Shown in pieces: positions 1 through 14,445 of a DNA stretch of 14,445 bases; positions within the stretch are counted from its first letter, which is position 1, and every line of letters begins with the position of its first letter. The notes beneath the pieces are model-generated. The model was not told the origin of the DNA, made no database searches, and was given only the letters and a program-made list of their open reading frames with translations. This DNA comes from a virus (Duplodnaviria > Heunggongvirae > Uroviricota > Caudoviricetes), in IMG/VR virus record IMGVR_UViG_2529292722_000020. One strand, given 5' to 3'. Both the position numbers and the translations under genes were made by a program.

Positions 1-441
<441 letters not shown>

Positions 442-445
<4 letters not shown>

Positions 446-711
446 TGCTTCATCTCCCTTTCCATTTCATCAATGTCAACGTCATCAGGAAGATGGGAGC
501 AATACGCCGCTATACCATGATGATTTATCTCATACCCTTTGAACGTTACCATCTGGCGCGTAATCTCAACTTCGTTCAGGAATCCGTCATCGCATAACTG
601 CCTGGCTATTTTCGATTTGGTCTGGATTATTGGTAGTGCCTGTTCTTTCAAAGCGCATGATATTTGTGCATCCCATGCCTTTTCGAGAATGGCTAATTGT
701 TTTTTATTCAT
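442..711 (-). CDS. Hypothetical phage protein (89 aa) in the nin-side region downstream of the helicase
   Basis: Complete ORF whose ATG overlaps the helicase-remnant stop (ATGA at 711-708). No family recognised. Confidence 0.5.
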
Positions 712-917
712 CAGAATCCTCCTTTCTTCTTGGACTGCGGTTCCTCGCGTTCACGTCGGCGCATTTCAGCAGACTGTTGGTCTGTGTCATAAATAGCGCC
801 ATTTGCCTGAATGCAATACACCGTGCCGGTATTGCCATGACGATTGAGGCGAAGGATTAGTTCGGTTTCACCAGGAGGAACGCTGTCATCAAAAGCACCT
901 TCACGATGGATCCCCAC
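711..917 (-). pseudogene. C-terminal remnant of the DnaB-like helicase, in the same frame as 936-2147 but cut off by an in-frame TAA at 936-938
   Basis: Translation across the stop reads ...SRDTGQI*QDCDYWVGIHREGAF...ELILRLNRHGNTGTVYCIQANGAIYDTD, which aligns with the DnaB C-terminus SGSIEQDADLIMFIYRDEVY...EIIIGKQRNGPIGTVRLTFNGQWSRFDN. Codon 917 is in frame with codon 935. Confidence 0.65.
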
Positions 918-935
918 CCAATAATCGCAATCCTG

Positions 936-2147
936 TTAAATCTGCCCTGTATCTCGTGAGTCACTTGGTAATGGGCGTTTATTGGTTCGGCTTTCCAGTG
1001 CGCGGTTAAGCTGTGTCAGAAGCACAACAACGCAATCAAGCTCTTTGGCAAGGTTCTTCAGTCCTTTGGTGATCATGCCGTAAGCAAGGTCGTTGCGATC
1101 GGCCTTTTCAGCGGTCATTAGTGTCAGGTAATCGACCAGAATCATGCCAACACATCCTTTTTCTCGCTTGATTCGACGGCTTTCGCTGACGATTTGAGCC
1201 AGAGATAATCCCGGCGTGTCGTCGATGTAAAGCAGGTCGATTTCACTCAAGCGATTGGCTGTTTCGATCGCCCTGTTGAAGTCACCATCGTAATCACCCT
1301 GATAGCCGTCATCAGCGTCATTTGTCGCCGGAAGGTAAAAAATATTCGGGTTAACACCTGACTTCTGTCCTACCAGTTTTTCCAGTATCTGGTCACCGGG
1401 CATTTCAAGGCTGAACATCAGAGCGGGCTTTTTCTCATGCACTGCGCAGTTGATTGCCATCTGGCTGTATAGCGTCGTTTTCCCCATCTTAGGGCGAGCG
1501 CCAATGACAAACAGAGAGCCTTTCACCAGACCTTTCGGTGACAGCATCCTGTCCAGCGATGGGATCCCTGTGCTCATTCCCCGTTGTTCGCCTGATGGGT
1601 CAAATCGCTTCTCAAGGTCGCTAACCCAGTCTTCCATGACCTCGCCAAATGAGCGAAGGCCGCGACGCGATCCGGTTTTTGCATGGTCTGTCAGTTGCGT
1701 GAAAATCGCCTGAATAGCTTCGTACTTCTGCGTCGCAGTCATTCCGTTGCGGGAATAGAGCAATTCCGTCGCTTCAGTCATGCGGTTGATGGCGTAGCGT
1801 TCCATTGCGGTTTCGCGAACCTGCATTGCATAGGCAACGATGTTTGCGGCGCTCGGCGTGTTCTTTGCGATCTCAGCGATATAAGCAAAACCGCCAACAG
1901 ACGCCGTTAACGATTTACGCTCCAGTTCATCGAAAAGCGTCAGGCCATCTACTGGCTTTTGCTCCCGGTGCATTCTGGTTATTTCTTCGAAAAGGATTTT
2001 GTGTGATCGGCTGTAAAATGAATCAGGCTTCAGCATCGCCAGAACTTTCTGGACGCGCTCACTGCTGTCATCATCCAGAAGCAATCCACCAATCACCGCC
2101 TGCTCTGCCTCGATGCTATGGGGCGGCGCATAAAAATTATCGGTCAT
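936..2147 (-). CDS. Replicative DNA helicase, DnaB family (phage P22 gene 12 type), prematurely terminated
   Basis: PPHSIEAEQAVIGGLLLD N-terminal motif and Walker A GARPKMGKT. Start chosen at ATG 2147-2145 (MTDNFY) behind a GAGGGTG Shine-Dalgarno rather than the GTG at 2162. The product lacks about 70 C-terminal residues of the RecA-like domain. Confidence 0.8.
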   Translation of the reverse strand: MTDNFYAPPHSIEAEQAVIGGLLLDDDSSERVQKVLAMLKPDSFYSRSHKILFEEITRMHREQKPVDGLTLFDELERKSLTASVGGFAYIAEIAKNTPSAANIVAYAMQVRETAMERYAINRMTEATELLYSRNGMTATQKYEAIQAIFTQLTDHAKTGSRRGLRSFGEVMEDWVSDLEKRFDPSGEQRGMSTGIPSLDRMLSPKGLVKGSLFVIGARPKMGKTTLYSQMAINCAVHEKKPALMFSLEMPGDQILEKLVGQKSGVNPNIFYLPATNDADDGYQGDYDGDFNRAIETANRLSEIDLLYIDDTPGLSLAQIVSESRRIKREKGCVGMILVDYLTLMTAEKADRNDLAYGMITKGLKNLAKELDCVVVLLTQLNRALESRTNKRPLPSDSRDTGQI

Positions 2148-3027
2148 CGTGTTCACCCTCACGAACTTTCAGGTAGGTATTATCGTTAAGCAGGAAATCA
2201 AATCCCTTTTTGTGCCAGACGGTTCCTCGCTGATGGTTTGGGCGCTCTTCGAACATCCATCGGCAATTTTCGCCTACGTATCTCAAATAATTTCTCCAGT
2301 CCTGCATCGTGAACCCATGCCCGTCAAGCTGGCGGGTTATCACTCCGGCTTTGCGCCAGAACGTTCGGATCTGGTTTTTACGCTTGTCATTCAGTGCGCG
2401 GATTCTTGGCGCTTCAGGAAGGATTTCGTGGTAAGCATCGACAACATCCTGACAGCTAACGGAAGGTTTTTTCTTGTCAGACTTTTTGTCTGCTGTGGCA
2501 CTCTCTAATACGTCAGTATTAGAGATATTATTTATATTATTGTTTATGGACAACCGTTGGACAACCGTTGGACAATCTCCGCTGAGAGCCTCGCCATTAC
2601 TGGTGTTTGCGTTGGACAACCGTTGGACAACCGTTGGACAATTTTTTGCCTGAAAATCGTCATATTTAACGATTGTAAACAGGCTAAATTTCTTCCCCAT
2701 CGAGCAAATATTAAGCATCCCTTTCGACTCAAAAGTCCGTAATAAGCTCCGAACTTTGTTGTCGGGGATGAATGTTTCTCTGACCAGCGACGGGCGTCCA
2801 GTTATCATCTGACCGCGATCAACAGTTATCGGCCCGATATCCGTATTGACGACAGTAGATTCGTGATTAGCCTTGAGGATTAAGTGAAGCCAAAGATGTA
2901 CTGCCTGAGAGTCCTTATAGAGCCTGCTGTCCATAAACTGGCGGTGTATATAGGCATACCCCATACTGGATGCCTCCTGATGTTGTACAGGGTTATGCCT
3001 GTAATCAGCTAACTTAACGACGCCCAT
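2137..3027 (-). CDS. Replication initiator, lambda O / P22 gene 18-like, with origin iterons inside the coding sequence
   Basis: Position immediately upstream of and overlapping the helicase gene; the iterons encode a repeated CPTVVQRLSN peptide, as lambda ori does within O. Confidence 0.8.
   Translation of the reverse strand: MGVVKLADYRHNPVQHQEASSMGYAYIHRQFMDSRLYKDSQAVHLWLHLILKANHESTVVNTDIGPITVDRGQMITGRPSLVRETFIPDNKVRSLLRTFESKGMLNICSMGKKFSLFTIVKYDDFQAKNCPTVVQRLSNANTSNGEALSGDCPTVVQRLSINNNINNISNTDVLESATADKKSDKKKPSVSCQDVVDAYHEILPEAPRIRALNDKRKNQIRTFWRKAGVITRQLDGHGFTMQDWRNYLRYVGENCRWMFEERPNHQRGTVWHKKGFDFLLNDNTYLKVREGEHDDR
2546..2644. repeat. Replication origin iterons: two clusters of three 11-bp direct repeats (TTGGACAACCG), flanked by an AT-rich tract at 2505-2545
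   Basis: Direct reading: clusters at 2546-2578 and 2612-2644, separated by about 33 bp. The AT-rich block taatacgtcagtattagagatattatttatattattgtttat lies on the side expected for a lambda-type ori. Confidence 0.65.
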
Positions 3028-3175
3028 GTTTCACTCCTGCTTTGGCTAGTCTGTAAACACCAACAAGGCGCTCTGCGAACGCCCTGTTATTTGCTGCGGC
3101 TACCACTAATCCCTCAGGTGAATCAGGGTGTCGAATCTCTTCTTTTTCCTGGTATTTCTTACGACGTTTTGTCAT
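3014..3175 (-). CDS. Small basic protein (53 aa, MTKRRKKYQEKEEIRHPDSPEGLVVAAANNRAFAERLVGVYRLAKAGVKHGRR) between cII-like and O-like genes
   Basis: ATG at 3175-3173 sits 5 nt behind an AGGAG Shine-Dalgarno; the stop at 3016-3014 overlaps the O start by 14 nt. Found by manual translation. Confidence 0.35.
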   Translation of the reverse strand: MTKRRKKYQEKEEIRHPDSPEGLVVAAANNRAFAERLVGVYRLAKAGVKHGRR

Positions 3176-3207
3176 AATTACTCCTGTGGATTGATCCAGT
3201 AATTCCC

Positions 3208-3504
3208 TCAGAATTGCATATCAATTTGCTTAAAATCCTCGGTGGCGGCCGGGGATTTTTTCTTTGTGATTTCATCAAGCGCATACTTAAAAGCCCTGCT
3301 AATTGGACTGATGTCTGATGCCATTCCGAAAGCACACAAGACCGAAGCAATAAACCGCCAGTCCGTTCTGCTTATCTTCGATTCATGACAACCAATCATC
3401 TTTGCCAGACCGCGCTGAGTAAGCGTTGACAGGTTGATAAGTAAATCTGTTTCAGCGCGATCAACGTCACGCTGTGTTGGCTTGCTGTAGCTTGCTTGTG
3501 CCAT
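3208..3504 (-). CDS. CII-like transcriptional activator (P22 C1 type)
   Basis: C-terminus KKKSPAATEDFKQIDMQF resembles lambda CII KKRPAATERSEQIQMEF; gene lies downstream of cro in the rightward operon. Confidence 0.8.
   Translation of the reverse strand: MAQASYSKPTQRDVDRAETDLLINLSTLTQRGLAKMIGCHESKISRTDWRFIASVLCAFGMASDISPISRAFKYALDEITKKKSPAATEDFKQIDMQF
3237..3262 (+). terminator. Antisense intrinsic terminator inside the 3' end of the cII-like gene (candidate OOP-like RNA terminator)
   Basis: Stem CCTCGG (3237-3242), loop TGGCGG, stem CCGGGG (3249-3254, one G-U pair), then TTTTTT at 3257-3262, on the strand opposite cII. Confidence 0.45.
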
Positions 3505-3572
3505 TTGTTAATTTTCCTATATTGATATTGAGTTATAGCGGCACACCCAATGGATTTGCCGCTGATGTTTGC

Positions 3573-3614
3573 TCACCCGGTTAGAGGTGAAAGGCCAGAA
3601 CTGTTAAAGAGCAA
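3573..3614 (-). promoter_or_regulatory. Candidate nutR: boxA (GCTCTTTAACAG) plus boxB hairpin with CUAACC loop
   Basis: Minus-strand boxA at 3612-3601 directly after the cro stop; hairpin UCACCU-CUAACC-GGGUGA at 3590-3573. Confidence 0.45.
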
Positions 3615-3619
3615 TTTGC

Positions 3620-3805
3620 TTATGCCGCTTGGCGGTAAGCACTTTCTTGATACTTCAGGGCGCCAGCTGTAACGATTTCCAATCGATAGGCGTCTTTCTC
3701 TGGGATAACTTCTTTCCACTGAGAGACTGCTGCATCGCTAATGCCTAGTGCTTTAGCAACAGCACGCTGGGTTCCGAAGTGGTCAATAACATCTTTTTTG
3801 TACAT
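3620..3805 (-). CDS. cro: Cro repressor, P22 type
   Basis: 61-aa product MYKKDVIDHFGTQRAVAKALGISDAAVSQWKEVIPEKDAYRLEIVTAGALKYQESAYRQAA matches my recollection of P22 Cro almost residue for residue; divergent from the repressor gene. Confidence 0.9.
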   Translation of the reverse strand: MYKKDVIDHFGTQRAVAKALGISDAAVSQWKEVIPEKDAYRLEIVTAGALKYQESAYRQAA

Positions 3806-3885
3806 AGACTCGCTCCGAAATTAAAGAACACTTAAATTATCCACCAAAGGAATCTTAAGTCAAGTTTATTTAAGATGTCTTAACT
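3806..3885. promoter_or_regulatory. Right operator region (OR) with divergent PR/PRM between cro and c2
   Basis: Palindromic sites with TTAAGA / TCTTAA half-sites: ATTAAAGAACACTTAAAT near 3820-3838 and TTTAAGATGTCTTAA at 3869-3883, the latter abutting the c2 ATG. Confidence 0.6.
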
Positions 3886-4536
3886 ATGAATACACAACTG
3901 ATGGGTGAGCGTATTCGCGCTCGCAGAAAAGAACTCAAGATTAGGCAGGCTGCCCTTGGCAAGATGGTTGGCGTGTCTAATGTTGCTATTTCCCAATGGG
4001 AGCGATCTGAAACTGAGCCCAATGGCGAAAACCTATTGGCCTTAGCCAAGGCTTTGCAGTGCTCCCCTGATTACCTGTTGAAAGGAGAGGATAGTCTTTC
4101 AAACATTGCCTATCACAGCAGGCATGATCCAAGAGGTTCGTATCCTCTAATTAGTTGGGTAAGCGCAGGATGTTGGATGGAAGCTGTAGAGCCATATCAT
4201 AGGCGTGCAATAGATAACTGGTACGACACAACGGTAGATTGTTCTGAAGACTCTTTTTGGCTCGACGTTAAAGGCGATTCAATGACTGCCCCGGCAGGAC
4301 TGAGTATTCCTGAGGGGATGATTATTCTCGTCGACCCAGAAGTCGAACCACGTAATGGAAAGCTGGTAGTCGCCAAACTTGAAGGGGAAAACGAGGCGAC
4401 ATTCAAAAAGTTAGTTATTGATGCCGGTAGAAAATTCCTGAAACCACTCAATCCACAATACCCAATGATTGAAATCAATGGGAACTGTAAAATCATTGGC
4501 GTTGTCGTTGATGCCAAGCTAGCAAACCTTCCTTAA
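3886..4536 (+). CDS. c2: Phage repressor, P22 c2 type (N-terminal HTH domain plus C-terminal LexA/S24-like autocleavage domain)
   Basis: 216 aa; N-terminus MNTQLMGERIRARRKELKIRQAALGKMVGVSNVAISQWERSETEPNGENLLALAKALQCSPDYLLKG matches remembered P22 c2; the C-terminal half has the GDSM...K serine-lysine dyad pattern. Confidence 0.9.
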   Translation: MNTQLMGERIRARRKELKIRQAALGKMVGVSNVAISQWERSETEPNGENLLALAKALQCSPDYLLKGEDSLSNIAYHSRHDPRGSYPLISWVSAGCWMEAVEPYHRRAIDNWYDTTVDCSEDSFWLDVKGDSMTAPAGLSIPEGMIILVDPEVEPRNGKLVVAKLEGENEATFKKLVIDAGRKFLKPLNPQYPMIEINGNCKIIGVVVDAKLANLP

Positions 4537-4556
4537 GGGGCTTTCGCCCCTTTTTT
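4537..4556 (+). terminator. Intrinsic terminator after the repressor gene
   Basis: GGGGC-TTTC-GCCCC hairpin followed by TTTTTT, immediately after the TAA at 4534-4536. Confidence 0.7.
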
Positions 4557-4599
4557 ATTTCCCGTTAAAAATCAAAGACAAACTAAATTCACGCCCATA

Positions 4600-4656
4600 A
4601 AATTAAGTTTTCTTCAAAAATGCACTTGACCAATAAATTAAGAAGTCTTAAATTTA
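4600..4656 (+). promoter_or_regulatory. PL promoter with overlapping OL operators
   Basis: -35 TTGACC (4626-4631), 17-bp spacer, -10 TAAATT (4649-4654); palindrome ATTAAGAAGTCTTAAAT (4637-4653) overlaps the promoter, with a degenerate second site near 4603-4616. Confidence 0.5.
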
Positions 4657-4699
4657 AGCCATCAGCAGGACGCTGGAAGCCAAACGGAACAGATTGGCA

Positions 4700-4740
4700 G
4701 GCTCTTTAACATCGACGGACTCTCAACCTAACCGTTGAGA
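4700..4740 (+). promoter_or_regulatory. Candidate nutL: boxA (GGCTCTTTAAC) plus boxB hairpin (7-bp stem, CUAACC loop)
   Basis: GCTCTTTAAC at 4701-4710 matches the boxA consensus; hairpin TCTCAAC-CTAACC-GTTGAGA at 4721-4740 has no following U-run, so it is not a terminator. Lies between PL and the N-like gene. Confidence 0.5.
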
Positions 4741-4850
4741 CCAGAACTTGAGTGGTTTTGGGGATGGCGCGAATTGCAGCTGCAAGACAGCGATCGAGAA
4801 GATAAGCACCTCGACGCGTCATGCGCCAAAGCCACTTAAAGGAGACCATC

Positions 4851-5156
4851 ATGGTAACCATTGTCTGGAAAGAATCCAAAGGTACGGCAAAAAGCCGCTA
4901 CAAAGCTCGCAGAGCAGAACTTATTGCCGAGCGACGCAGTAATGAAGCACTGGCGCGAAAAATTGCGCTAAAGCTCTCTGGTTGCGTCAGAGCAGACAAA
5001 GCAGCATCACTAGGAAGCCTTTGCTGCAAGAAGAAAGAAGAAGTCGTTCGAAAAAATAGAAGTATTTATTACAAAGATTCAAACCCGTTAGGAAACAAAA
5101 TTCATGCAGTCCAAAAAATAAAATTGTACAGTAAACTACCGTACGGTGCTTATTGA
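4851..5156 (+). CDS. N: N-like transcription antiterminator with arginine-rich motif (phage 21 N type)
   Basis: ATG at 4851 sits 7 nt after AAGGAG; the N-terminal GTAKSRYKARRAELIAERR matches the arginine-rich boxB-binding peptide I recall for phage 21 N; first gene downstream of PL and nutL. The track's upstream start at 4821 has no Shine-Dalgarno. Confidence 0.7.
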   Translation: MVTIVWKESKGTAKSRYKARRAELIAERRSNEALARKIALKLSGCVRADKAASLGSLCCKKKEEVVRKNRSIYYKDSNPLGNKIHAVQKIKLYSKLPYGAY

Positions 5157-5158
5157 GT

Positions 5159-5497
5159 ATGCTTATGGTGAAAAAGACTATTTATGTTAATCCTGACCGC
5201 GGACAAAACAGAAAAGTATCTGATAGAGGTCTTACATCTCGAGACAGGAGGAGAATAGCGAGATGGGAAAAAAGGATAGCATATGCATTAAAAAACGGTG
5301 TAACACCTGGATTTAATGCTATAGATGACGGTCCTGAATATAAAATTAATGAAGAACCAATGGACAAAGTTGACAAAGCATTAGCAACACCATTTCCTCG
5401 CGATGTCGAAAAAATTGAAGATGAAAAATATGAGGATGTAATGCACAGAGTTGTTAATCACGCTCACCAACGAAATCCAAATAAAAAATGGTCATAG
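5159..5497 (+). CDS. Hypothetical charged protein (about 112 aa), AT-rich accessory gene
   Basis: ORF immediately after N, followed directly by an intrinsic terminator. Start uncertain (TTG 5153, ATG 5159 or ATG 5165); no family recognised. Confidence 0.45.
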   Translation: MLMVKKTIYVNPDRGQNRKVSDRGLTSRDRRRIARWEKRIAYALKNGVTPGFNAIDDGPEYKINEEPMDKVDKALATPFPRDVEKIEDEKYEDVMHRVVNHAHQRNPNKKWS

Positions 5498-5517
5498 CCC
5501 ACTTCGGTGGGTTTTTT
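5498..5517 (+). terminator. Intrinsic terminator
   Basis: CCCAC-TTCG-GTGGG hairpin followed by TTTTTT, starting one base after the TAG stop. Confidence 0.7.
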
Positions 5518-5630
5518 ATTGTCTGAACAAATCTAATTTACTACCGCAAGCCACGCAGTGAAATGGGTGTGACTTGTGTTGGTCGCCAGAAAATGAAATT
5601 AGGCAGCAAACCACTTATTTGAGGTGAGAT

Positions 5631-6101
5631 ATGACAAAATCATGGAGCGTACCTTTTCCTGAATCAGAAACTGAACATGATGGAATGCCTGTTTTCTGGA
5701 GATTCCAGGCGACAGTTGAAGAAGATGGGATAAAAATATTCGCACTTCAATATATAGCTTTTCATCAGACAGAGCATTATGCATGGTTGGTTCCTGCGCA
5801 TTGGATTGTTGATTTTAAACCAGCACCAAATCAGTGGTTACAGGAATGGAAACAAAAGAGAAATAGATATGCAATTAAGAAAGTAGCAAAAAATGCAGAA
5901 AGATCTTTTGCATTCCCAACGAAGAAACTTGCCATTGAAAGTTTATTGCGCCGGAAGAAATACCATTTAATGAGAATCAAACAAGATTTGGCTGTTGTAT
6001 CAACTCTTGTTGATGGGATGAAGAATATTGATACATCAACACCAGATATTGAATATAACTTTGGGCACAACCAAGAAACAGAAAATTGGGTATTTTATTA
6101 G
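5631..6101 (+). CDS. Hypothetical protein (156 aa), AT-rich moron gene
   Basis: GAGGTGAG Shine-Dalgarno 5 nt before ATG 5631; lies between two intrinsic terminators; no family recognised. Confidence 0.55.
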   Translation: MTKSWSVPFPESETEHDGMPVFWRFQATVEEDGIKIFALQYIAFHQTEHYAWLVPAHWIVDFKPAPNQWLQEWKQKRNRYAIKKVAKNAERSFAFPTKKLAIESLLRRKKYHLMRIKQDLAVVSTLVDGMKNIDTSTPDIEYNFGHNQETENWVFY

Positions 6102-6206
6102 TACGAGTAAGCACTGTGTATTCATTCCAACGAGTGAATACACGGAGCAATGTCGCTCGTAACTAAACAGGAGCCGACTTGTTCTGATTATTGGAAATCT
6201 TCTTTG

Positions 6207-6229
6207 CCCTCCGATGTGGGGGGCTTTTT
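6207..6229 (+). terminator. Intrinsic terminator closing the moron unit
   Basis: CCCTCC-GATGT-GGGGGG hairpin (one G-U pair) followed by CTTTTTA. Confidence 0.5.
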
Positions 6230-6295
6230 ATATGCATACCAATAACGCTTCACTCGAGGCGTTTTCGTTATGCAATCAAACAGAAGGAGCATCCT

Positions 6296-6466
6296 ATGCA
6301 ACAGTTCGCTATTGCAGGGGCGGCATCGGTTCGCCCTTTCAACCCGATTTTATCGGTACAGCATTCACGAAAAAATATTTTAACCGGAGCAGACTTTAAA
6401 CAACCAAGAATGAAAAGCTTGCTCGAAAAGCTTTGGGATATTTTGAAACAACAAGGCCGTCCATGA
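6296..6466 (+). CDS. CIII-like protein (putative FtsH inhibitor), 56 aa
   Basis: AAGGAG Shine-Dalgarno 8 nt before ATG 6296; MQQFAIAG...SLLEKLWDILKQQGRP resembles lambda CIII (MQYAIAG...SLLERITRKLRDGWKRLIDILNQPGVP). The longer overlapping ORFs in the track are rejected. Confidence 0.5.
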   Translation: MQQFAIAGAASVRPFNPILSVQHSRKNILTGADFKQPRMKSLLEKLWDILKQQGRP

Positions 6467-6621
6467 GTTTTACAGATAACTGGTCAGACGAAGAATTCAT
6501 TCGTCAGATGAAAGAATTAATCGGTAACGAAGGAGATATTCATGTCACTTGCAACCACAGTGAAGGAGAGCAAGTTACAGAGACGCATGTACACGCAGAA
6601 AGCTCTCTGGTATCGCCATAA
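6463..6621 (+). CDS. Small acidic protein (52 aa) in the kil position
   Basis: ATG 6463 overlaps the cIII-like stop (ATGA). Assigned by position only. Confidence 0.3.
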   Translation: MSFTDNWSDEEFIRQMKELIGNEGDIHVTCNHSEGEQVTETHVHAESSLVSP

Positions 6622-6720
6622 TGGCGACCGCGAAGGAATGCGGGTATGCCTTAATTTGTCCCGAGTCGAAGTATTAAATCAGCGTTATTTCCTTGGGCCG
6701 TGTCCATTCTGAGGTGAATT

Positions 6721-7428
6721 ATGGATTTGAATAAATTCGATGAGCCATTCAGCCCTGAAGATATCGAATGGCGAATACAGCAAAGCGGTAAAACACGCGA
6801 TGGCAAGGGGTGGGCTATGGTGCTGGCTTATGTCACGAACCGGGCAATCATGAAACGCCTGGACGATGTTTGCGGCAAAGCAGGATGGCGCAATGAATAC
6901 CGCGATATTCCCAACAACGGCGGCGTTGAATGCGGCATATCAATAAAGATTGATTCCGAATGGGTAACCAAATGGGATGCTGCTGAAAACACGCAGGTAG
7001 AAGCCGTCAAAGGTGGTCGTTCAGGTGCAATGAAGCGCGCTGCCGTTCAGTGGGGAATCGGTCGGTATCTGTATAACCTTGAGGAAGGTTTCGCACAAAC
7101 ATCTCTCGATAAAAAGCAGGGATGGCACAGGGCAAAACTCAAGGATGGAACAGGATTTTACTGGCTCCCTCCATCGCTGCCGGGATGGGCAATACCAGCA
7201 TCAGATAACAAACCATCACCAGAAAATACCAACCAGAAATCTCCATCGGTTGACTGCGAACAAATCCTGAAAGACTTCAGCGATTATGCGTCAACAGAAA
7301 CTGACAAGAAAAAACTCATCGAGCGTTATCAGCGTGACTGGCAATTAATGGCTGGCAACGAGGAGGCGCAGGCTAAATGCGTTCAGGTAATGAACATCAG
7401 AGTTAACGAACTAAAACAGGCGGCATAA
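6721..7428 (+). CDS. Rad52-family single-strand annealing protein (Sak-like recombinase)
   Basis: GAGGTGA Shine-Dalgarno before ATG 6721; AYVTNRAIMKRLDDVCGKAGW and GAMKRAAVQWGIGRYLYN match Rad52 N-domain patterns ([20 protein letters not shown] and KRALRSFGNALGN); occupies the bet position. Confidence 0.7.
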   Translation: MDLNKFDEPFSPEDIEWRIQQSGKTRDGKGWAMVLAYVTNRAIMKRLDDVCGKAGWRNEYRDIPNNGGVECGISIKIDSEWVTKWDAAENTQVEAVKGGRSGAMKRAAVQWGIGRYLYNLEEGFAQTSLDKKQGWHRAKLKDGTGFYWLPPSLPGWAIPASDNKPSPENTNQKSPSVDCEQILKDFSDYASTETDKKKLIERYQRDWQLMAGNEEAQAKCVQVMNIRVNELKQAA

Positions 7429-7896
7429 ATGTCTCACTTGGACGGAATTATTAAAAGATTCGAGTCCAGCTACAAAGTTAATGAAACAACAGGTTGCTGG
7501 GAGTCTACCTATTCAAAAAACAAAGGAGGATACACAAAATTTGTAGCCTTTGGCGTAACAATGCTTTCTCATCGGGTTGCTTTTGAGCTTTATCACTCCC
7601 CCATTCCATCTGGGAAGATGGTTTGCCACAAATGCGATAACCCATGCTGCGTTAATCCTGAACATCTCTTTTTAGGTAGCGCGCAAGAAAACATGGACGA
7701 CAAGATAGCAAAAGGAAGGCATCGTGGAGCCAAGAAAGGTCATGCTCATCATGGTGCAAAATTAACAGAGTGGCAGGGTATAGAAATTAGGAAAAGACTC
7801 TCTGAAAAAGAGAGTCAGTACAAGATAGCAAAAGACATGGGTGTATCTCAATCAATTATAAGCAACATAAAAACTGGCAAGAGGTGGAGCAAATGA
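7429..7896 (+). CDS. HNH homing-type endonuclease with C-terminal HTH
   Basis: HNH motif [26 protein letters not shown]; start abuts the SSAP stop (TAAATG); the end overlaps the SSB start. Confidence 0.8.
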
Positions 7897-8399
7897 GTTC
7901 TCGCGGGATAAATAAGGTGATTATCCTTGGTCGGGTAGGACAAGACCCGGAAGTTCGATACTCACCATCAGGAACAGCGTTCGCTAACCTGACAATAGCC
8001 ACGTCAGAACAATGGCGAGATAAAAATACTGGCGAGCAAAAGGAATTGACTGAATGGCATCGTGTTGCTGTATCCGGGAAACTGGCTGAGGTCGTGGGGC
8101 AGTATGTGAAAAAAGGTGATCAGATTTATTTCGAGGGAATGCTGAGAACCAGAAAATGGAAAGACCAGTCAGGGCAAGACCGTTACACAACCGAGGTTCA
8201 TGTCGGAATTAATGGCGTGATGCAAATGCTTGGCGGCATTGGCGACAGCAAACAACAAGCAGCCAGCAGGCAATCACAGAAGCCACAGCAGCAATCATCA
8301 CCAGCACAACACAACGAACCTCCGATGGATTTTGACGACGATATACCCTTTGCACCAGTAACTCTCCCCTTCCCTCGTCACGCTATTCACGCAATTTAA
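7893..8399 (+). CDS. ssb: Single-stranded DNA-binding protein SSB, with a 15-aa extension after the DDDIPF tail
   Basis: [23 protein letters not shown]...TEWHRVAV...[11 protein letters not shown] closely resembles E. coli SSB; GAGGTG Shine-Dalgarno 6 nt before ATG 7893. Confidence 0.9.
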
Positions 8400-8407
8400 G
8401 GACTTAC

Positions 8408-8956
8408 ATGAATCACTTAATGGTTGACCTTGAAACAATGGGCAACGGGCCATACGCGCCAGTTATTTCTATTGGGGCGGTATTCTTTGACCCGAATACC
8501 GGAGAAACAGGAGAAGAGTTCTCGGTAAATATCTCGCTTGAGTCATCAATGCGATATCGGGCGCGTCCTGACGCTTCAACGATTTTATGGTGGATGGAAC
8601 AGAGTGAAGAAGCCAGAAAATCGCTAACCAGCAACACTCAAGAGCTTTCAACAGCTCTTTCATGGTTATCTGAATTCATCATAAAGAACGCTAACCACAA
8701 ATTCGTTCAGGTTTGGGGGAATGGAGCATCATTTGACTGCGTTATTCTCCGCAACAGTTATTCGCTGACAGGGCAGCCAGTTCCGTGGCAGTGGTGGAAT
8801 GACCGCGACGTAAGAACAATCGTCGAGCTTGGAAAGGTAATAGGATTCGACCCTAAGCGAGATATGCCATTCAAAGGAACTCGCCACAACGCGCTTGATG
8901 ATGCCATCCACCAAGCCAAATACGTTTCAGCGATCTGGAAAAAGTTAGCTAAATAA
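8408..8956 (+). CDS. DnaQ-like (DEDDh) 3'-5' exonuclease
   Basis: Exo I motif MVDLETMG and Exo III motif HNALDDAIHQAKY; sits in the phage recombination module. Confidence 0.7.
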   Translation: MNHLMVDLETMGNGPYAPVISIGAVFFDPNTGETGEEFSVNISLESSMRYRARPDASTILWWMEQSEEARKSLTSNTQELSTALSWLSEFIIKNANHKFVQVWGNGASFDCVILRNSYSLTGQPVPWQWWNDRDVRTIVELGKVIGFDPKRDMPFKGTRHNALDDAIHQAKYVSAIWKKLAK

Positions 8957-8972
8957 TCAACCGGAGAAAAAC

Positions 8973-9266
8973 ATGCCAGCGCCTTTGTATGGTGCGGATG
9001 ACCCGCGCCGCTGTTCCGGCAATTCTGTATCGGAGGTGCTGGATAAATTCAGAAAAAACTACGATCGAATAATGTCTCTACCGCAGGAAACGAAAGAGGA
9101 AAAGGAATTTCGCCACTGTATATGGCTTGCAGAGAAAGAAGAACGCGAGCGAATTTACCAGACATCAATCCGACCATTCCGCAAAGCCACATATACCCAC
9201 TTCCCTGAAATTGACCCGCGCCTGCGTCATTACCGCTCACGCTATGGCGCTATCAGTAATGACTGA
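8973..9266 (+). CDS. Hypothetical protein (97 aa)
   Basis: ORF with a GGAGA Shine-Dalgarno; no family recognised. Confidence 0.5.
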   Translation: MPAPLYGADDPRRCSGNSVSEVLDKFRKNYDRIMSLPQETKEEKEFRHCIWLAEKEERERIYQTSIRPFRKATYTHFPEIDPRLRHYRSRYGAISND

Positions 9267-9277
9267 GGAATTAACAA

Positions 9278-9567
9278 TGAAAACAAAGAAGCTAAACATC
9301 GACATCGGCAAATACGTTATTACCGGAACCAAACACGATCTGATTCTTAGCGAAAGAGGAATTATCAAAGAAGGCGAGAATGCAGGGAAAGAAACACTAA
9401 GTCGTATCGGTTATTACAGCAAGTTTGAGCATCTGGTCAAAGAGTTATGCAACCGTGAAATCCTGTTATCTCAGGCGCAGACGCTACAGGATATTCAGCA
9501 GCATATCGATACTTTAGGTGTATCACTTAGCATGGCTGTTGACCAGTTCATGGAGAGTAAATCATGA
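9278..9567 (+). CDS. Hypothetical protein (96 aa)
   Basis: Start taken at ATG 9278 behind a GAGG Shine-Dalgarno rather than the track's upstream start at 9127; no family recognised. Confidence 0.5.
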
Positions 9568-11806: not shown

Positions 11807-12084
11807 TGGACTCCTTCGCGAAATATACAATTATTGACTGGATAGCCTTCCTTCAGGTTTTGCTCATCTGGTTTTATATGGCTTACAGGAGTGGACAGTG
11901 GATTGTCAGTGTAGCCTGTAGCAAGGGATGGCGTTGGTGGAACAGAAAGAATAAAAAAGCACTGGCATTGGATTCGTTTTACGAAGCATTCAATCTTAAC
12001 AGCCTTCAGCCTGGTTCTGTCATTGTAGTCACCACTCAAAGCGGCATGACCATTCAGATTCATAAACCAAAAGAGGAAAAATGA
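11806..12084 (+). CDS. Hypothetical protein with hydrophobic N-terminal segment (92 aa)
   Basis: AGGAGGTG Shine-Dalgarno inside the upstream gene's 3' end; ATG overlaps the upstream TAA. Confidence 0.45.
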   Translation: MDSFAKYTIIDWIAFLQVLLIWFYMAYRSGQWIVSVACSKGWRWWNRKNKKALALDSFYEAFNLNSLQPGSVIVVTTQSGMTIQIHKPKEEK

Positions 12085-12170
12085 TGTGGCCTATATGTGT
12101 TAATTGCGGACGGATGTGCCTATCTGGATGGTGCCGAAAGTGCGACAAATGCACGAAGAAAAGACAATAA
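12084..12170 (+). CDS. Cys-rich micro-protein (MWPICVNCGRMCLSGWCRKCDKCTKKRQ), possible zinc ribbon
   Basis: Six cysteines in 28 aa; AGAGGA Shine-Dalgarno upstream; start overlaps the upstream stop. Found by manual translation. Confidence 0.25.
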   Translation: MWPICVNCGRMCLSGWCRKCDKCTKKRQ

Positions 12171-12242
12171 CAATCCTCGCACTCGCGGGGATTTCTTTTA
12201 TCTGAACTCGCTACGGCGGGTTTTGTTTTATGGAGATGATAA

Positions 12243-12410
12243 ATGCACTTCCGAGTCACAGGTGAATGGAATGGAGAGCCATTCGACAGGGTCGTCGAAG
12301 CAGAGGGCATCAACGACTGCTATAACCACTGGATGATATGGGCGCAGATAGCGCATGCAGACGTAACCAATATTCGAATTGAAGAACTGAAAGAACACCA
12401 AGCCGCCTGA
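12243..12410 (+). CDS. Hypothetical small protein (55 aa)
   Basis: GGAG Shine-Dalgarno 7 nt before ATG 12243; followed directly by an intrinsic terminator. Confidence 0.35.
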   Translation: MHFRVTGEWNGEPFDRVVEAEGINDCYNHWMIWAQIAHADVTNIRIEELKEHQAA

Positions 12411-12422
12411 TGGCGGTTTTTT
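12403..12422 (+). terminator. Intrinsic terminator
   Basis: CCGCC-TGAT-GGCGG hairpin followed by TTTTTT. Confidence 0.65.
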
Positions 12423-12432
12423 ATTGCCTGAT

Positions 12433-12448
12433 TTGCAGGTTCGATTCC
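12433..12448 (+). other. tRNA-derived fragment matching the T-arm of tRNA-Arg argW (att-site remnant)
   Basis: TTGCAGGTTCGATTCC carries the GGTTCGATTCC T-loop signature and matches the argW segment as I recall it; flanks do not continue the tRNA. Confidence 0.5.
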
Positions 12449-12467
12449 CTATTCGGAGATAGCACTC

Positions 12468-12668
12468 ATGCAACACGAACTACAGCCTGATTCACTGGTT
12501 GATTTGAAATTCATCATGGCCGATACTGGCTTTGGTAAAACCTTCATCTACGACCGGATTAAGTCCGGCGACCTGCCAAAAGCCAAAGTTATCCACGGGC
12601 GAGCAAGATGGTTATATCGTGACCATTGTGAATTCAAAAATAAGCTCTTAAGCCGCGCCAATGGGTAA
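12468..12668 (+). CDS. AlpA/Xis-family excisionase-like DNA-binding protein
   Basis: 66 aa with winged-helix pattern ...MADTGFGKTFIYDRIKSGDLPKAKVIHGRARWLYRDHCEF...; sits at the integration-proximal end of the prophage. Confidence 0.7.
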   Translation: MQHELQPDSLVDLKFIMADTGFGKTFIYDRIKSGDLPKAKVIHGRARWLYRDHCEFKNKLLSRANG

Positions 12669-12741
12669 AATAGCGGGTAAAATATTTCTCACATCTAAAA
12701 AACACCATTCTAATCAATCCCCTGCCGCGTCAAGTAGATGT

Positions 12742-12756
12742 CTGCAGGGGACACCA
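12742..12756 (+). other. 3'-terminal fragment of tRNA-Arg argW (acceptor 3' strand plus CCA); host side of the attachment junction
   Basis: CTGCAGGGGACACCA matches the argW 3' end as I recall it; it is the direct continuation of the fragment at 12433-12448. Confidence 0.55.
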
Positions 12757-13197
12757 GATACCCTTCAAACGAAATCTACCTTCACCCCGTAAAAGATGGG
12801 TTTGGCAGCACACTTGCCTTATATCTACTCATTTTTACTGCAACAGGTTGAAATCTCAGCACTGTCAGAAAGCGCTGATGACTAAACAGCCCTGGGCCGG
12901 GCGATGTAACCATCACACAGAATCCTGATAGCGAAATATGGCGTGACTCGATACTTCACTCCGCAATGCATTCCTTGATGAATTCGCAGGACCGTGATAC
13001 ACGGGACAGGTCACTGAATGACGACAATGTCCTGGAAATCAGCGAACCGCGCATCTGAAGTACATTTGAGCGACTGTACCAGAACATGAATGAGGCGTTT
13101 GGATTAGGCGATTATTAGCAGGGCTAAGCATTTTACTATTATTATTTTCCGGTTGAGGGATATAGAGCTATCGACAACAACCGGAAAAAGTTTACGT

Positions 13198-14445
13198 CTA
13201 TATTGCTGAAGGTACAGGCGTTTCCATAACTATTTGCTCGCGTTTTTTACTCAAGAAGAAAATGCCAAATAGCAACATCAGGCAGACAATACCCGAAATT
13301 GCGAAGAAAACTGTCTGGTAGCCTGCGTGGTCAAAGAGTATCCCAGTCGGCGTTGAAAGCAGCACAATCCCAAGCGAACTGGCAATTTGAAAACCAATCA
13401 GAAAGATCGTCGACGACAGGCGCTTATCAAAGTTTGCCACGCTGTATTTGAAGACGGATATGACACAAAGTGGAACCTCAATGGCATGTAACAACTTCAC
13501 TAATGAAATAATCCAGGGGTTAACGAACAGCGCGCAGGAAAGGATACGCAACGCCATAATCACAACTCCGATAAGTAATGCATTTTTTGGCCCTACCCGA
13601 TTCACAAAGAAAGGAATAATCGCCATGCACAGCGCTTCGAGTACCACCTGGAATGAGTTGAGATAACCATACAGGCGCGTTCCTACATCGTGTGATTCGA
13701 ATAAACCTGCATAAAAGACAGGAAAAAGTTGTTGATCAAAAATGTTATAGAAAGACCACGTCCCCACAATAAATATGACGAAAACCCAGAAGTTTCGATC
13801 CTTGAAAACTGCGATAAAATCCTCTTTTTTTACCCCTCCCGCATCTGCCGCTACGCACTGGTGATCCTTATCTTTAAAACGCATGTTGATCATCATAAAT
13901 ACAGCGCCAAATAGCGAGACCAACCAGAAGTTGATATGGGGACTGATACTAAAAAATATGCCGGCAAAGAACGCGCCAATAGCATAGCCAAAAGATCCCC
14001 AGGCGCGCGCTGTTCCATATTCGAAATGAAAATTTCGCGCCATTTTTTCGGTGAAGCTATCAAGCAAACCGCATCCCGCCAGATACCCCAAGCCAAAAAA
14101 TAGCGCCCCCAGAATTAGACCTACAGAAAAATTGCTTTGCAGTAACGGTTCATAAACGTAAATCATAAACGGTCCGGTCAAGACCAGGATGAAACTCATA
14201 CACCAGATGAGCGGTTTCTTCAGACCGAGTTTATCCTGAACGATGCCGTAGAACATCATAAATAGAATGCTGGTAAACTGGTTGACCGAATAAAGTGTAC
14301 CTAATTCCGTCCCTGTCAACCCTAGATGTCCTTTCAGCCAAATAGCGTATAACGACCACCACAGCGACCAGGAAATAAAAAAGAGAAATGAGTAACTGGA
14401 TGCAAAACGATAGTACGCATTTCTGAATGGAATATTCAGTGCCAT
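13198..14445 (-). CDS. cscB: Sucrose:H+ symporter CscB (LacY-family oligosaccharide permease)
   Basis: 415-aa multi-transmembrane protein; N-terminus MALNIPFRNAYYRFASSYSFLFFISWSLWW matches my recollection of E. coli CscB. The window ends exactly on its start codon. Confidence 0.85.
   Translation of the reverse strand: MALNIPFRNAYYRFASSYSFLFFISWSLWWSLYAIWLKGHLGLTGTELGTLYSVNQFTSILFMMFYGIVQDKLGLKKPLIWCMSFILVLTGPFMIYVYEPLLQSNFSVGLILGALFFGLGYLAGCGLLDSFTEKMARNFHFEYGTARAWGSFGYAIGAFFAGIFFSISPHINFWLVSLFGAVFMMINMRFKDKDHQCVAADAGGVKKEDFIAVFKDRNFWVFVIFIVGTWSFYNIFDQQLFPVFYAGLFESHDVGTRLYGYLNSFQVVLEALCMAIIPFFVNRVGPKNALLIGVVIMALRILSCALFVNPWIISLVKLLHAIEVPLCVISVFKYSVANFDKRLSSTIFLIGFQIASSLGIVLLSTPTGILFDHAGYQTVFFAISGIVCLMLLFGIFFLSKKREQIVMETPVPSAI

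What the first reader, a model, noticed from the sequence alone, without database searches (positions are those of the whole stretch)
12428..12760. Two contiguous argW fragments split by about 290 bp carrying the AlpA/Xis-like gene, with no integrase
TTGCAGGTTCGATTCC (12433-12448) and CTGCAGGGGACACCA (12742-12756) are adjacent segments of the argW 3' half as I recall it, both on the + strand. The first abuts the phage arm and the second abuts host DNA leading to cscB. This looks like an attachment junction at argW, but the int gene expected after xis is absent and a small cassette sits inside the tRNA-derived identity segment. That suggests deletion or tandem, serial integration at argW.
Basis: partly seen in the sequence, partly recalled or inferred. 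Interest (0 to 1): 0.55.

Follow-up and report, generated by a model that had tools for sequence, protein, structure and literature searches.

The report
Prophage right end at argW
This is the ordinary right-hand junction (attR) of a P22-like prophage of the well-studied KplE1/HK620/Sf6 type inserted in the argW tRNA gene; in this phage family the excisionase gene torI sits at this end and the integrase sits at the far end, so nothing has been deleted.

Summary
Window 12433-12448 equals argW nt 46-61 and 12742-12756 equals argW nt 61-75, both exact, on the + strand and 293 nt apart. Chance expectation is below 1e-4.

The site is an attachment junction, namely attR of a KplE1/HK620/Sf6-type recombination module. 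The 66-aa ORF is TorI, the excisionase (matches PDB 1Z4H). In this family attP lies between xis and int, so integration places intS at the opposite end.

A genome 99.96% identical to the window has intact argW plus intS 43 kb upstream. It has exactly one att core at each prophage end, and the matching empty site exists in many E. coli genomes. Deletion or serial integration is therefore not supported.

Only the second fragment is the crossover core. The first fragment is carried by the free phages HK620 and Sf6. It sits 18-21 nt before the torI start in 27 of 31 distinct TorI lineages. It contains the published TorI-site pentamer GTTCG. I read it as an old argW T-arm copy kept as a cis element, possibly a TorI operator; this is inferred, not shown.

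The CUS-3 GenBank record takes this 16-mer as its att core and so omits torI.

The parts
12400..12427 (+). Intrinsic terminator (stem-loop plus T run) ending the upstream early-left gene (55-aa ORF 12243-12410). The conserved recombination module begins at its T run.
   Evidence: Terminator scan. Among 53 E. coli-type loci the stem is highly variable and the downstream sequence is conserved. Sf6 annotates a 'boundary sequence bsq2' that starts here.
12433..12448 (+). First argW fragment, TTGCAGGTTCGATTCC (argW nt 46-61: T-stem 5' strand, T-loop and CC). It is not the crossover site. It is a conserved box 19 nt before the torI ATG and contains GTTCG, the pentamer of published TorI sites.
   Evidence: Exact match. 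Present in free phages HK620 and Sf6. Present in 27 of 31 TorI lineages at a fixed distance from the ATG. GTTCGATT is invariant in an unanchored MAFFT alignment. TorI site motif from PMC2951348. The in vitro attR substrate excludes this region (PMC3509656).
12468..12668 (+). torI, the excisionase / recombination directionality factor (66 aa).
   Evidence: PDB 1Z4H, E 6.6e-43, residues 1-66. RefSeq 'response regulator inhibitor TorI'. HK620 hkaC and Sf6 gene 18 occupy the same position in those phages.
12663..12682 (+). Two GGGTAAAA repeats (12663-12670 and 12675-12682), read as P-arm IntS arm-type sites.
   Evidence: Read directly from the sequence. HK620 annotates the homologous stretch as an attP repeat. 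IntS arm-type sites share the TAAA motif (PMC2951348). The in vitro attR primer ends at 12664. Binding was not tested here.
12731..12741 (+). Phage-side flank of the core (AAGTAGATGT), the presumed C core-type half-site. In other genera this flank reads TTCGATGTA, a second and diverged T-loop-like copy.
   Evidence: Comparison of 20 loci. The role as an IntS core-type site is inferred.
12742..12756 (+). attR core CTGCAGGGGACACCA (argW nt 61-75), the real crossover identity segment. Phage DNA lies to its left and host DNA starts at 12757.
   Evidence: KplE1 core CTGCAGGGGACACCAT (PMC2951348). All phage homology stops at query position 557 = window 12756. attL carries the same core followed by the phage P' arm. 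Empty site.
12757..13197 (.). Host DNA that follows argW directly in prophage-free csc-type strains and leads to cscB (13198-14445, - strand).
   Evidence: A query of argW plus window 12757-12970 matches as one uninterrupted 100% piece in many genomes. Annotation.

Best explanation
Window 12428-12760 is the attR junction of a roughly 43-kb P22-like (Lederbergvirus-type) prophage integrated at the 3' end of argW. Integration used the KplE1/HK620/Sf6 site-specific recombination module.

How it works, from the cited literature. The tyrosine integrase IntS exchanges strands within the 15-16-nt core CTGCAGGGGACACCA(T), which phage attP shares with the 3' end of argW. In the phage circle attP lies between torI (xis) and intS. 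Integration therefore leaves argW-core-P' arm-intS at the left end (attL) and torI-P arm-core-host at the right end (attR). Excision needs IntS, IHF and TorI; TorI binds GTTCG-type sites in attL.

Shown here. The second fragment is that core. torI is intact. intS and an intact argW sit at the other end in a 99.96%-identical genome. The empty site exists in other E. coli genomes.

The first fragment (argW T-arm 16-mer) is not a second junction. It belongs to the phage module itself and lies at the module's left edge, between a terminator and the torI ribosome-binding site.

Inferred. It descends from an old copy of the argW T-arm. It has been kept as a cis-acting DNA site in front of torI, most likely a TorI (GTTCG) operator or accessory RDF site. 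The confidence value below applies to the attR/module identification. My confidence that the box is a selected cis element is about 0.5, and that it binds TorI about 0.3.
For: The window is 99.96% identical over all 14445 nt to E. coli O114:H49 90-9280. In that genome tRNA-Arg is followed by intS at 1528699-1530086, then P22-type tail, head, lysis and immunity genes run down to torI. The core and the T-arm 16-mer each occur exactly twice across the 77 kb examined, once per prophage end, giving a prophage of 43,013 bp.

Four-way att logic:
- attL = ...GATTC CTGCAGGGGACACCA TTTATCAGTTCGCTCC
- attP of HK620 = ...AGATGT CTGCAGGGGACACCA TTTATCAGTTCGCTCC
- attR = ...AGATGT CTGCAGGGGACACCA GATACCCTTC
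- attB = argW + GATACCCTTC, uninterrupted in many genomes

Homology to free phages (N7, Louie, HF4s, Kapi1, Sf6, HK620) ends exactly at window 12756. TorI matches PDB 1Z4H.

Literature: 16-nt core, module conserved in HK620, Sf6 and CUS-3, five TorI sites with GTTCG/GATCG/GTCCG cores on attL, arm sites with TAAA (PMC2951348). A 135-bp attR that starts at the end of torI suffices in vitro (PMC3509656). Int and xis lie at opposite prophage ends (PMC8787464).

For the box: it is present in HK620 and Sf6 attP regions. It is found in Escherichia, Citrobacter-like, Serratia, Pantoea, Erwinia and Edwardsiella lineages at a constant 18-21 nt from the ATG, while the outer flanks are only 33-63% conserved. 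It is tandemly duplicated in Erwinia phages and in L125. Among 53 E. coli-type loci only 1 of its 16 sites varies, and that variant is a singleton.
Against: The window itself does not contain attL, argW or intS; these are inferred from a near-identical genome.

Against the box being essential:
- It is absent from Klebsiella phage Chronis, Dryocola, Tatumella and a Pantoea clade, all of which still have torI and the core.
- A large Citrobacter-like clade has an extra T (GGTTCGATTTCC), so it is no longer an exact T-arm copy.
- Rare SNPs hit the box in some E. coli-type loci.
- The published minimal in vitro attR lacks it.
- The published TorI sites are on attL; none has been reported here as far as I could read, and the two key binding-site papers (J Biol Chem 2007; Virology 2010) are not held.
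- The conserved ATTCC tail is longer than a TorI pentamer needs.
- No sigma-70 promoter is predicted next to it.
Confidence: 0.93

Rival explanations
1. One reading: the junction is abnormal. The integrase was lost by deletion, or two elements integrated serially or in tandem at argW and left a small xis cassette inside the tRNA identity segment of this strain.
For: No int in the window after torI. Two adjacent argW pieces are separated by 293 nt.
Against: intS and intact argW sit at the other end in a 99.96%-identical genome. There is only one core and one 16-mer per prophage end. The same arrangement occurs in the packaged phages HK620 and Sf6 and in many genera, so it predates this lysogen. 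The literature describes xis and int at opposite ends as the normal state.
Confidence: 0.02
2. The T-arm 16-mer TTGCAGGTTCGATTCC is the real att core, as annotated for CUS-3 in CP000711. The prophage would then end at 12448, and torI plus the 3' fragment would be host or other DNA.
For: The CUS-3 record marks this 16-mer as 'attL core' and 'attR core'. It is an exact direct repeat flanking the prophage.
Against: Free-phage genomes continue through torI to 12756 and then into the P' arm and int. CUS-3's own left end is the HK620-type P' arm and int. In the CUS-3 lysogens IHE3034 and UTI89, torI and a core follow the 16-mer before dsdC. The empty site joins argW's ACCA directly to 12757. KplE1 recombines in vitro with an attR that lacks the 16-mer.
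Confidence: 0.02
3. The first fragment is only a neutral relic. On this view an ancestral attP carried a longer argW 3' segment (T-arm through CCA), and torI with the P arm came to lie inside or beside it. The 16-mer has no present function.
For: 16/16 identity to argW in the E. coli lineage and 15/16 in several other clades (TT[A/C/T]CAGGTTCGATTCC) point to descent from the tRNA. It is dispensable in some lineages and in vitro. It lies exactly at the left boundary of the conserved module.
Against: The flanks are nearly randomised between genera while CAGGTTCGATT..CC stays almost invariant at a fixed distance from the ATG. It is duplicated in tandem in two lineages. The core-adjacent flank in most genera is itself a second T-loop-like copy (TTCGATGTA). 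The picture is therefore a duplication, not one fragment split by an insertion.
Confidence: 0.35
4. The first fragment is part of a cII-activated pI-type promoter, as annotated for HK620 and Sf6 (cII site TTGCCTGATTTGC plus a 'phage integration' promoter). It would drive transcription through torI and attP into int during establishment of lysogeny.
For: GenBank annotation of HK620 and Sf6 places the promoter and cII site over this stretch.
Against: The first TTGC is polymorphic (G/A in 18 of 53 E. coli-type loci). Neither TTGC is conserved in other genera, although the GTTCGATT box is. No sigma-70-like hexamer pair is found. The spacing in HK620 is N5, not the N6 of lambda cII sites (N6 from my own knowledge).
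Confidence: 0.1

Closest known systems
KplE1 (CPS-53) prophage recombination module of E. coli K-12: argW-attL-intS ... torI-attR
   Same: Same tRNA target. Same core CTGCAGGGGACACCA. The 66-aa TorI matches PDB 1Z4H at E 6.6e-43 over its full length. Same GGGTAAAA P-arm repeats. Same upstream T-arm 16-mer: loci L009 and L012, whose host flank (CATCCTTGTGTTTATCC...) is near-identical to the published K-12 attR-XbaI primer region, carry it. intS is next to argW at the other end.
   Different: KplE1 is a 10.2-kb defective remnant next to dsdC. Here the module belongs to a full-length, roughly 43-kb P22-like prophage, and the host flank is the csc sucrose island. As a result the identity with host DNA ends after ACCA (G instead of T at 12757).
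attP regions of coliphage HK620 and Shigella phage Sf6
   Same: 98% identical over window 12363-12756. Same order: terminator, T-arm 16-mer, xis (hkaC / gene 18), attP core, P' arm, int.
   Different: In those phages the site is unrecombined attP, so the core is followed by the P' arm and int. Here it is followed by host DNA.
Phage CUS-3 (CP000711) 'attL/attR core'
   Same: Its annotated 16-nt core is exactly the first fragment, and its right end is 95% identical to window 12166-12448.
   Different: The CUS-3 record stops at the 16-mer. In CUS-3 lysogens torI and the core lie about 300 bp further on, so the record appears truncated rather than showing a different integration mechanism.
Lambda / P22 int-xis-attP arrangement
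   Same: Tyrosine integrase with arm-type and core-type sites, a small winged-helix RDF, and IHF dependence (established knowledge; PMC2951348).
   Different: In lambda attP lies downstream of int, so int and xis stay together at one prophage end and the RDF binds the P arm in attR. Here attP lies between xis and int, the two genes end up at opposite ends, and TorI binds attL.

Membership tests
KplE1/HK620/Sf6-type argW recombination module | RDF TorI (66-aa winged helix) encoded immediately inside attR | tested here: met
   ORF 12468-12668 matches PDB 1Z4H at E 6.6e-43 over the full length. RefSeq annotates it as torI.
KplE1/HK620/Sf6-type argW recombination module | 15-16-nt core CTGCAGGGGACACCA(T), identical to the argW 3' end, duplicated at both prophage ends | tested here: met
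   Window 12742-12756. Two copies in the matching genome, at argW and at attR. Core sequence from PMC2951348.
KplE1/HK620/Sf6-type argW recombination module | intS directly downstream of intact argW, same orientation, at the opposite prophage end | tested here: met
   L005: tRNA-Arg 13700-13774, intS 13936-15087. This is in a genome 99.96% identical to the window, not in the window itself.
KplE1/HK620/Sf6-type argW recombination module | In the free phage, attP lies between xis and int | tested here: met
   HK620 and Sf6 annotation and sequence. Stated for Kapi1, Sf6, HK620 and KplE1 in PMC8787464.
KplE1/HK620/Sf6-type argW recombination module | Clean reciprocal attL/attR/attP/attB relationship and an existing empty site | tested here: met
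   Searches give the four sequences. The empty site is found uninterrupted at 100% identity in many genomes.
KplE1/HK620/Sf6-type argW recombination module | IntS arm-type sites (TAAA motif) in the arms and TorI sites (GTTCG/GATCG/GTCCG) in the P' arm | tested here: met
   Tested by sequence only. GGGTAAAA x2 at 12663-12682. CAGTTCG, CAGTCCG, CAGTTCG, GGTTCG and CAGATCG lie in attL at L005 13778-13870. Motifs from PMC2951348.
KplE1/HK620/Sf6-type argW recombination module | IntS/TorI/IHF-dependent excision and integration activity | not testable with these tools
   Needs in vivo or in vitro recombination assays.
Tandem or serial integration, or a deletion derivative at a tRNA site | Extra att cores or tRNA fragments, remnants of a second element, or loss of int | tested here: not met
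   One core and one 16-mer per end across the 77 kb from yfcU to frc. intS is present. The arrangement is shared with free phages.
tRNA gene or tRNA-like structured RNA | Cloverleaf or T-arm hairpin detectable | tested here: not met
   ARAGORN finds 0 genes. No tRNA hit in Rfam at E<=10. No conserved pairs in the alignment fold of the torI 5' region.
T-loop (sublocation II) att site, as annotated for CUS-3 | Crossover within TTGCAGGTTCGATTCC, with phage DNA ending there | tested here: not met
   Phage homology continues to 12756. torI and the core follow the 16-mer in CUS-3 lysogens.
TorI (RDF) operator | GTTCG-type pentamer, conserved, and bound by TorI | tested here: inconclusive
   The pentamer is present and invariant in 27 of 31 lineages. 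Binding could not be tested. The conserved flanks (ATTCC) exceed what published sites share.

The most novel reading that the evidence does not exclude
The argW T-arm copy in front of torI is not a scar. It would be a tRNA-derived cis-regulatory site retained across enterobacterial phages of this module. TorI (through GTTCG) or the IntS core-binding domain (it equals the attB B-side half-site) would bind it to autoregulate the excisionase, or to bias attP against re-integration. That would be a case of a phage co-opting a piece of its own target tRNA as an operator.
Probability: 0.3. Interest if true: 0.4.

Novelty: already known. Interest (0 to 1): 0.2.

Why it matters
There are three practical points.

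First, a lone excisionase next to a tRNA fragment is not evidence of decay when the module is of the xis-attP-int type. The integrase must be sought at the other prophage end.

Second, a second exact tRNA-derived direct repeat 300 bp inside the true junction can mislead boundary calling. The CUS-3 reference record appears to end on it and therefore lacks its own excisionase gene.

Third, the family-wide conservation of the T-arm-like box before torI is a small, cheaply testable lead on how RDF expression is controlled. According to the KplE1 literature, RDF expression is the step that decides excision.

Tried and rejected
1. Chance match: rejected. Expected counts are 4.5e-6 and 2e-5.

2. tRNA or pseudo-tRNA, or a structured RNA: no support from ARAGORN, Rfam or alignment folding. 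The weak Rfam hits (STnc130 at 25 bits against a gathering score of 55) are below threshold.

3. Sigma-70 promoter at the box: none found by the consensus scan.

4. The cII/pI promoter annotated in HK620 and Sf6: the TTGC repeats are polymorphic or absent outside E. coli phages.

5. A Shine-Dalgarno-sequestering hairpin formed by UUCC and GGAG: only 4-5 weak pairs when checked by hand, and no consensus structure.

6. 'One contiguous argW fragment split by insertion of torI': too simple. In most genera the core's phage-side flank is itself T-loop-like (TTCGATGTA versus argW TTCGATTCC), so attP holds two T-loop-like copies.

7. Tandem-integration-plus-deletion histories: I could not derive the observed order from any of them without extra ad hoc steps, so the origin is left open.

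8. Papers that map IntS and TorI footprints on attR (Panis 2007 J Biol Chem; Panis 2010 Virology) and the Rho/torI paper (Menouni 2013 PNAS) are not held. I could not check whether the box has already been footprinted.

9. The 10-mer TGCAGGTTCG on the - strand at window 1816-1825 is of a length expected by chance and was dropped.

Full report
**1. The observation**

I took argW from the annotated tRNA-Arg of E. coli O114:H49 strain 90-9280 (L005 13700-13774). This genome matches the whole 14445-nt window at 99.96% identity.

An exact-match scan gives two hits on the + strand:
- argW nt 46-61 = window 12433-12448 (TTGCAGGTTCGATTCC)
- argW nt 61-75 = window 12742-12756 (CTGCAGGGGACACCA)

The two segments are adjacent in the tRNA and share the C at nt 61. 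In the window they are 293 nt apart. From base composition the expected counts are 4.5e-6 and 2.0e-5. Each pattern occurs only once, even with three mismatches allowed.

There is no tRNA gene in the window and no tRNA-family hit in the Rfam scan of 12000-13200.

**2. What the locus is**

The 66-aa ORF between the fragments (12468-12668) is TorI. It matches PDB 1Z4H, 'Tor inhibition protein', at E 6.6e-43 over all 66 residues, and RefSeq annotates it as torI. TorI is the excisionase (recombination directionality factor) of the KplE1/CPS-53 prophage. KplE1 is bordered by the duplicated 16-nt core CTGCAGGGGACACCAT at argW (PMC2951348).

BLAST against phage genomes shows where phage homology ends. 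Every free phage of this type (N7, Louie, HF4s, Kapi1, Sf6, HK620) stops matching at query position 557, which is window 12756, the last base of the second fragment.

The four att sites fit together exactly:
- attL (L005) = ...GATTC-CTGCAGGGGACACCA-TTTATCAGTTCGCTCC
- attP of HK620 = ...AGATGT-CTGCAGGGGACACCA-TTTATCAGTTCGCTCC
- attR (window) = ...AGATGT-CTGCAGGGGACACCA-GATACCCTTC
- attB = argW followed by GATACCCTTC

For attB I joined argW to window 12757-12970 and searched. The join is found as one uninterrupted 100% match in many E. coli genomes, and 1472 genomes hold at least 80% of it in one place. Host DNA therefore begins at 12757. The second fragment is the true attR core.

**3. Why there is no integrase here**

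In HK620 and Sf6 the annotated order is xis (hkaC / gene 18), attP core, P' arm, int. The Kapi1 paper states that for Kapi1, Sf6, HK620 and KplE1 attP lies between int and xis, so the two genes end up at opposite prophage ends (PMC8787464). The KplE1 papers describe intS as the first gene and torI as the last, transcribed independently (PMC2951348, PMC3509656).

In the matching genome, intact argW (1528699-1528773) is followed by intS (1528935-1530086). A P22-like gene set then runs down to torI: tailspike, ejection proteins, coat, portal, terminase, lysis, Q, nin, replication, cro/cI, erf, abc.

Across the 77 kb examined, the core and the T-arm 16-mer each occur exactly twice, once per prophage end. 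The prophage is 43,013 bp. Deletion or serial integration is not supported.

**4. The first fragment**

It is not a junction. It lies 6 nt after the T run of an intrinsic terminator (12400-12427) and 19 nt before the torI ATG.

The same TTGCAGGTTCGATTCC occupies the same place in the packaged phages HK620 (L003 2569-2584) and Sf6. It also occupies that place in loci L009 and L012, whose host flank is near-identical to the published K-12 attR primer region. It therefore belongs to the phage module and predates this lysogen.

The published in vitro attR substrate is 135 bp and starts at the end of torI (primer CTCTTAAGCCGCGCCAATGG = window 12645-12664). It excludes the fragment yet still recombines (PMC3509656). 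The fragment is thus not needed for excisive strand exchange.

I surveyed 212 torI loci from genomes and viral contigs, which gave 90 distinct upstream sequences.
- 27 of 31 distinct TorI-like proteins have GTT[C/A]GA[T/C]T within 60 nt upstream, nearly always 18-21 nt from the ATG.
- These come from Escherichia/Shigella, a Citrobacter-like clade, Serratia, Pantoea, Erwinia and Edwardsiella.
- Positions not used for anchoring are also conserved: CAG before the motif at 85-93% and CC after it at 93-100%. Sequence further out is only 33-63% conserved.
- An unanchored MAFFT alignment of 12 diverse sequences shows GTTCGATT invariant.
- Several clades read TT[A/C/T]CAGGTTCGATTCC, which is 15/16 identical to argW. 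This argues for descent from a tRNA T-arm copy rather than convergence.
- Erwinia phages carry two tandem copies, and L125 carries two.
- The Citrobacter-like clade has an extra T (GGTTCGATTTCC).
- The box is missing in Klebsiella phage Chronis (where a traR-like gene abuts xis), in Dryocola (it looks like a deletion between CTGG repeats), in Tatumella and in a Pantoea clade.
- Among 53 E. coli-type loci only 1 of the 16 positions varies, and that variant is a singleton. By comparison 4 of the 19 positions in the spacer to the ATG vary.

**5. What the box might do (inference)**

The published TorI sites on attL have cores GTTCG, GATCG and GTCCG. IntS arm sites share TAAA (PMC2951348). The box contains GTTCG, and in two lineages it reads CAGTTCG, exactly as the I1 and I3 sites in attL do.

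A TorI operator or accessory RDF site in front of torI is therefore the most economical functional reading, at a probability of about 0.3. The box also equals the attB sequence immediately left of the core, so it could be seen by the IntS core-binding domain.

Other readings fared worse:
- The cII-dependent pI promoter annotated over this stretch in HK620 and Sf6 is weakly supported. Its TTGC repeats are polymorphic in E. coli phages and absent in other genera. No sigma-70 hexamer pair is detected.
- No conserved RNA structure is found.
- A pure-relic reading remains possible, at a probability of about 0.35.

In most genera the phage-side flank of the core reads TTCGATGTA, against argW TTCGATTCC. 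attP therefore carries two T-loop-like copies. I could not reconstruct the history of how that arose.

**6. Comparison with known systems, and novelty**

Every testable defining feature of the KplE1/HK620/Sf6 module is met (see the membership table). Recombination activity cannot be tested with these tools. The finding is a member of an already described system, so the locus itself is not novel.

The family-wide T-arm-like box is, as far as I could read, not discussed in the papers that are held. Two key binding-site papers are not held, so I do not claim priority for it.

**7. Side result**

The CUS-3 GenBank record (CP000711) labels TTGCAGGTTCGATTCC as both its attL core and its attR core, and the record ends there. 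Its left end is the HK620-type core, P' arm and int.

In the lysogens IHE3034 and UTI89, which are 100% identical to the CUS-3 right end, the 16-mer is followed by torI and a core before dsdC. That core reads CTGCAGGGACACCAT, one G shorter than canonical. This may be why the inner repeat was chosen as the boundary. The CUS-3 record thus appears to omit about 310 bp that include the phage's excisionase gene.

**Verdict**

The locus is the known attR of a KplE1/HK620/Sf6-type prophage. Interest is low, with a modest testable lead in the conserved box.

Noticed in passing
L002 3234-3249 and L004 1-16 (CP000711 CUS-3); L109 2485-2815; L216 1585-1915: The CUS-3 reference record defines its att cores as the argW T-arm 16-mer and stops there. 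In the CUS-3 lysogens IHE3034 and UTI89, torI and the canonical-type core lie about 310 bp further on, before dsdC. The record seems to lack the phage's own excisionase gene and true attR.
   Followed up: yes
L109 2793-2808; L216 1893-1908: In IHE3034 and UTI89 the attR core reads CTGCAGGGACACCAT, with three Gs instead of four. This one-base deletion lies inside the presumed crossover region. It could impair excision of CUS-3 in the ST95 K1 lineage. I did not check the attL copy in those genomes.
   Followed up: partly
window 1-222 (= L001 7802-8023); L001 6222-8023: The window starts inside an IS100/IS21-family element (istA, istB). In the matching genome this element is inserted in the prophage's replication/nin region, next to truncated HNH and NinE pseudogenes. 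The prophage may therefore be defective despite its intact recombination module.
   Followed up: no
L001 26115-26333 (outside the window, downstream of csc): dsdX is annotated as missing its N-terminus and dsdC is absent. This fits the csc sucrose genes (cscB, cscK, cscA, cscR) having replaced dsdC and part of dsdX next to argW. It also explains why the host flank after ACCA differs from K-12 (G instead of T at window 12757).
   Followed up: no
L006 2484-2516; L128, L129 and L132 upstream of torI; L125: Erwinia-type phages carry two tandem copies of CAGGTTCGATTCCC (period 16) before their torI homologue. L125 has two copies, GTTCGATTCC and GTTCGATTACC (period 13). One Erwinia-type variant (L133) has only one copy.
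   Followed up: partly
window 12661-12792: A 43-aa ORF starts in the last codons of torI and runs across the attR core into host DNA. It corresponds to HK620 hkaB / Sf6 gene 17, which span the attP core in the free phage. Its C-terminal part is therefore replaced on integration.
   Followed up: no
L013 (JAEWEJ010000341, 'Actinomycetes bacterium' MAG) and L027 (JBKEAL010000209, 'Parachlamydiaceae' MAG): Two metagenome-assembled genomes labelled as Actinomycetes and Parachlamydiaceae carry short contigs with an enterobacterial-type torI module (85-92% TorI identity, with the box). These are probably binning contaminants.
   Followed up: no
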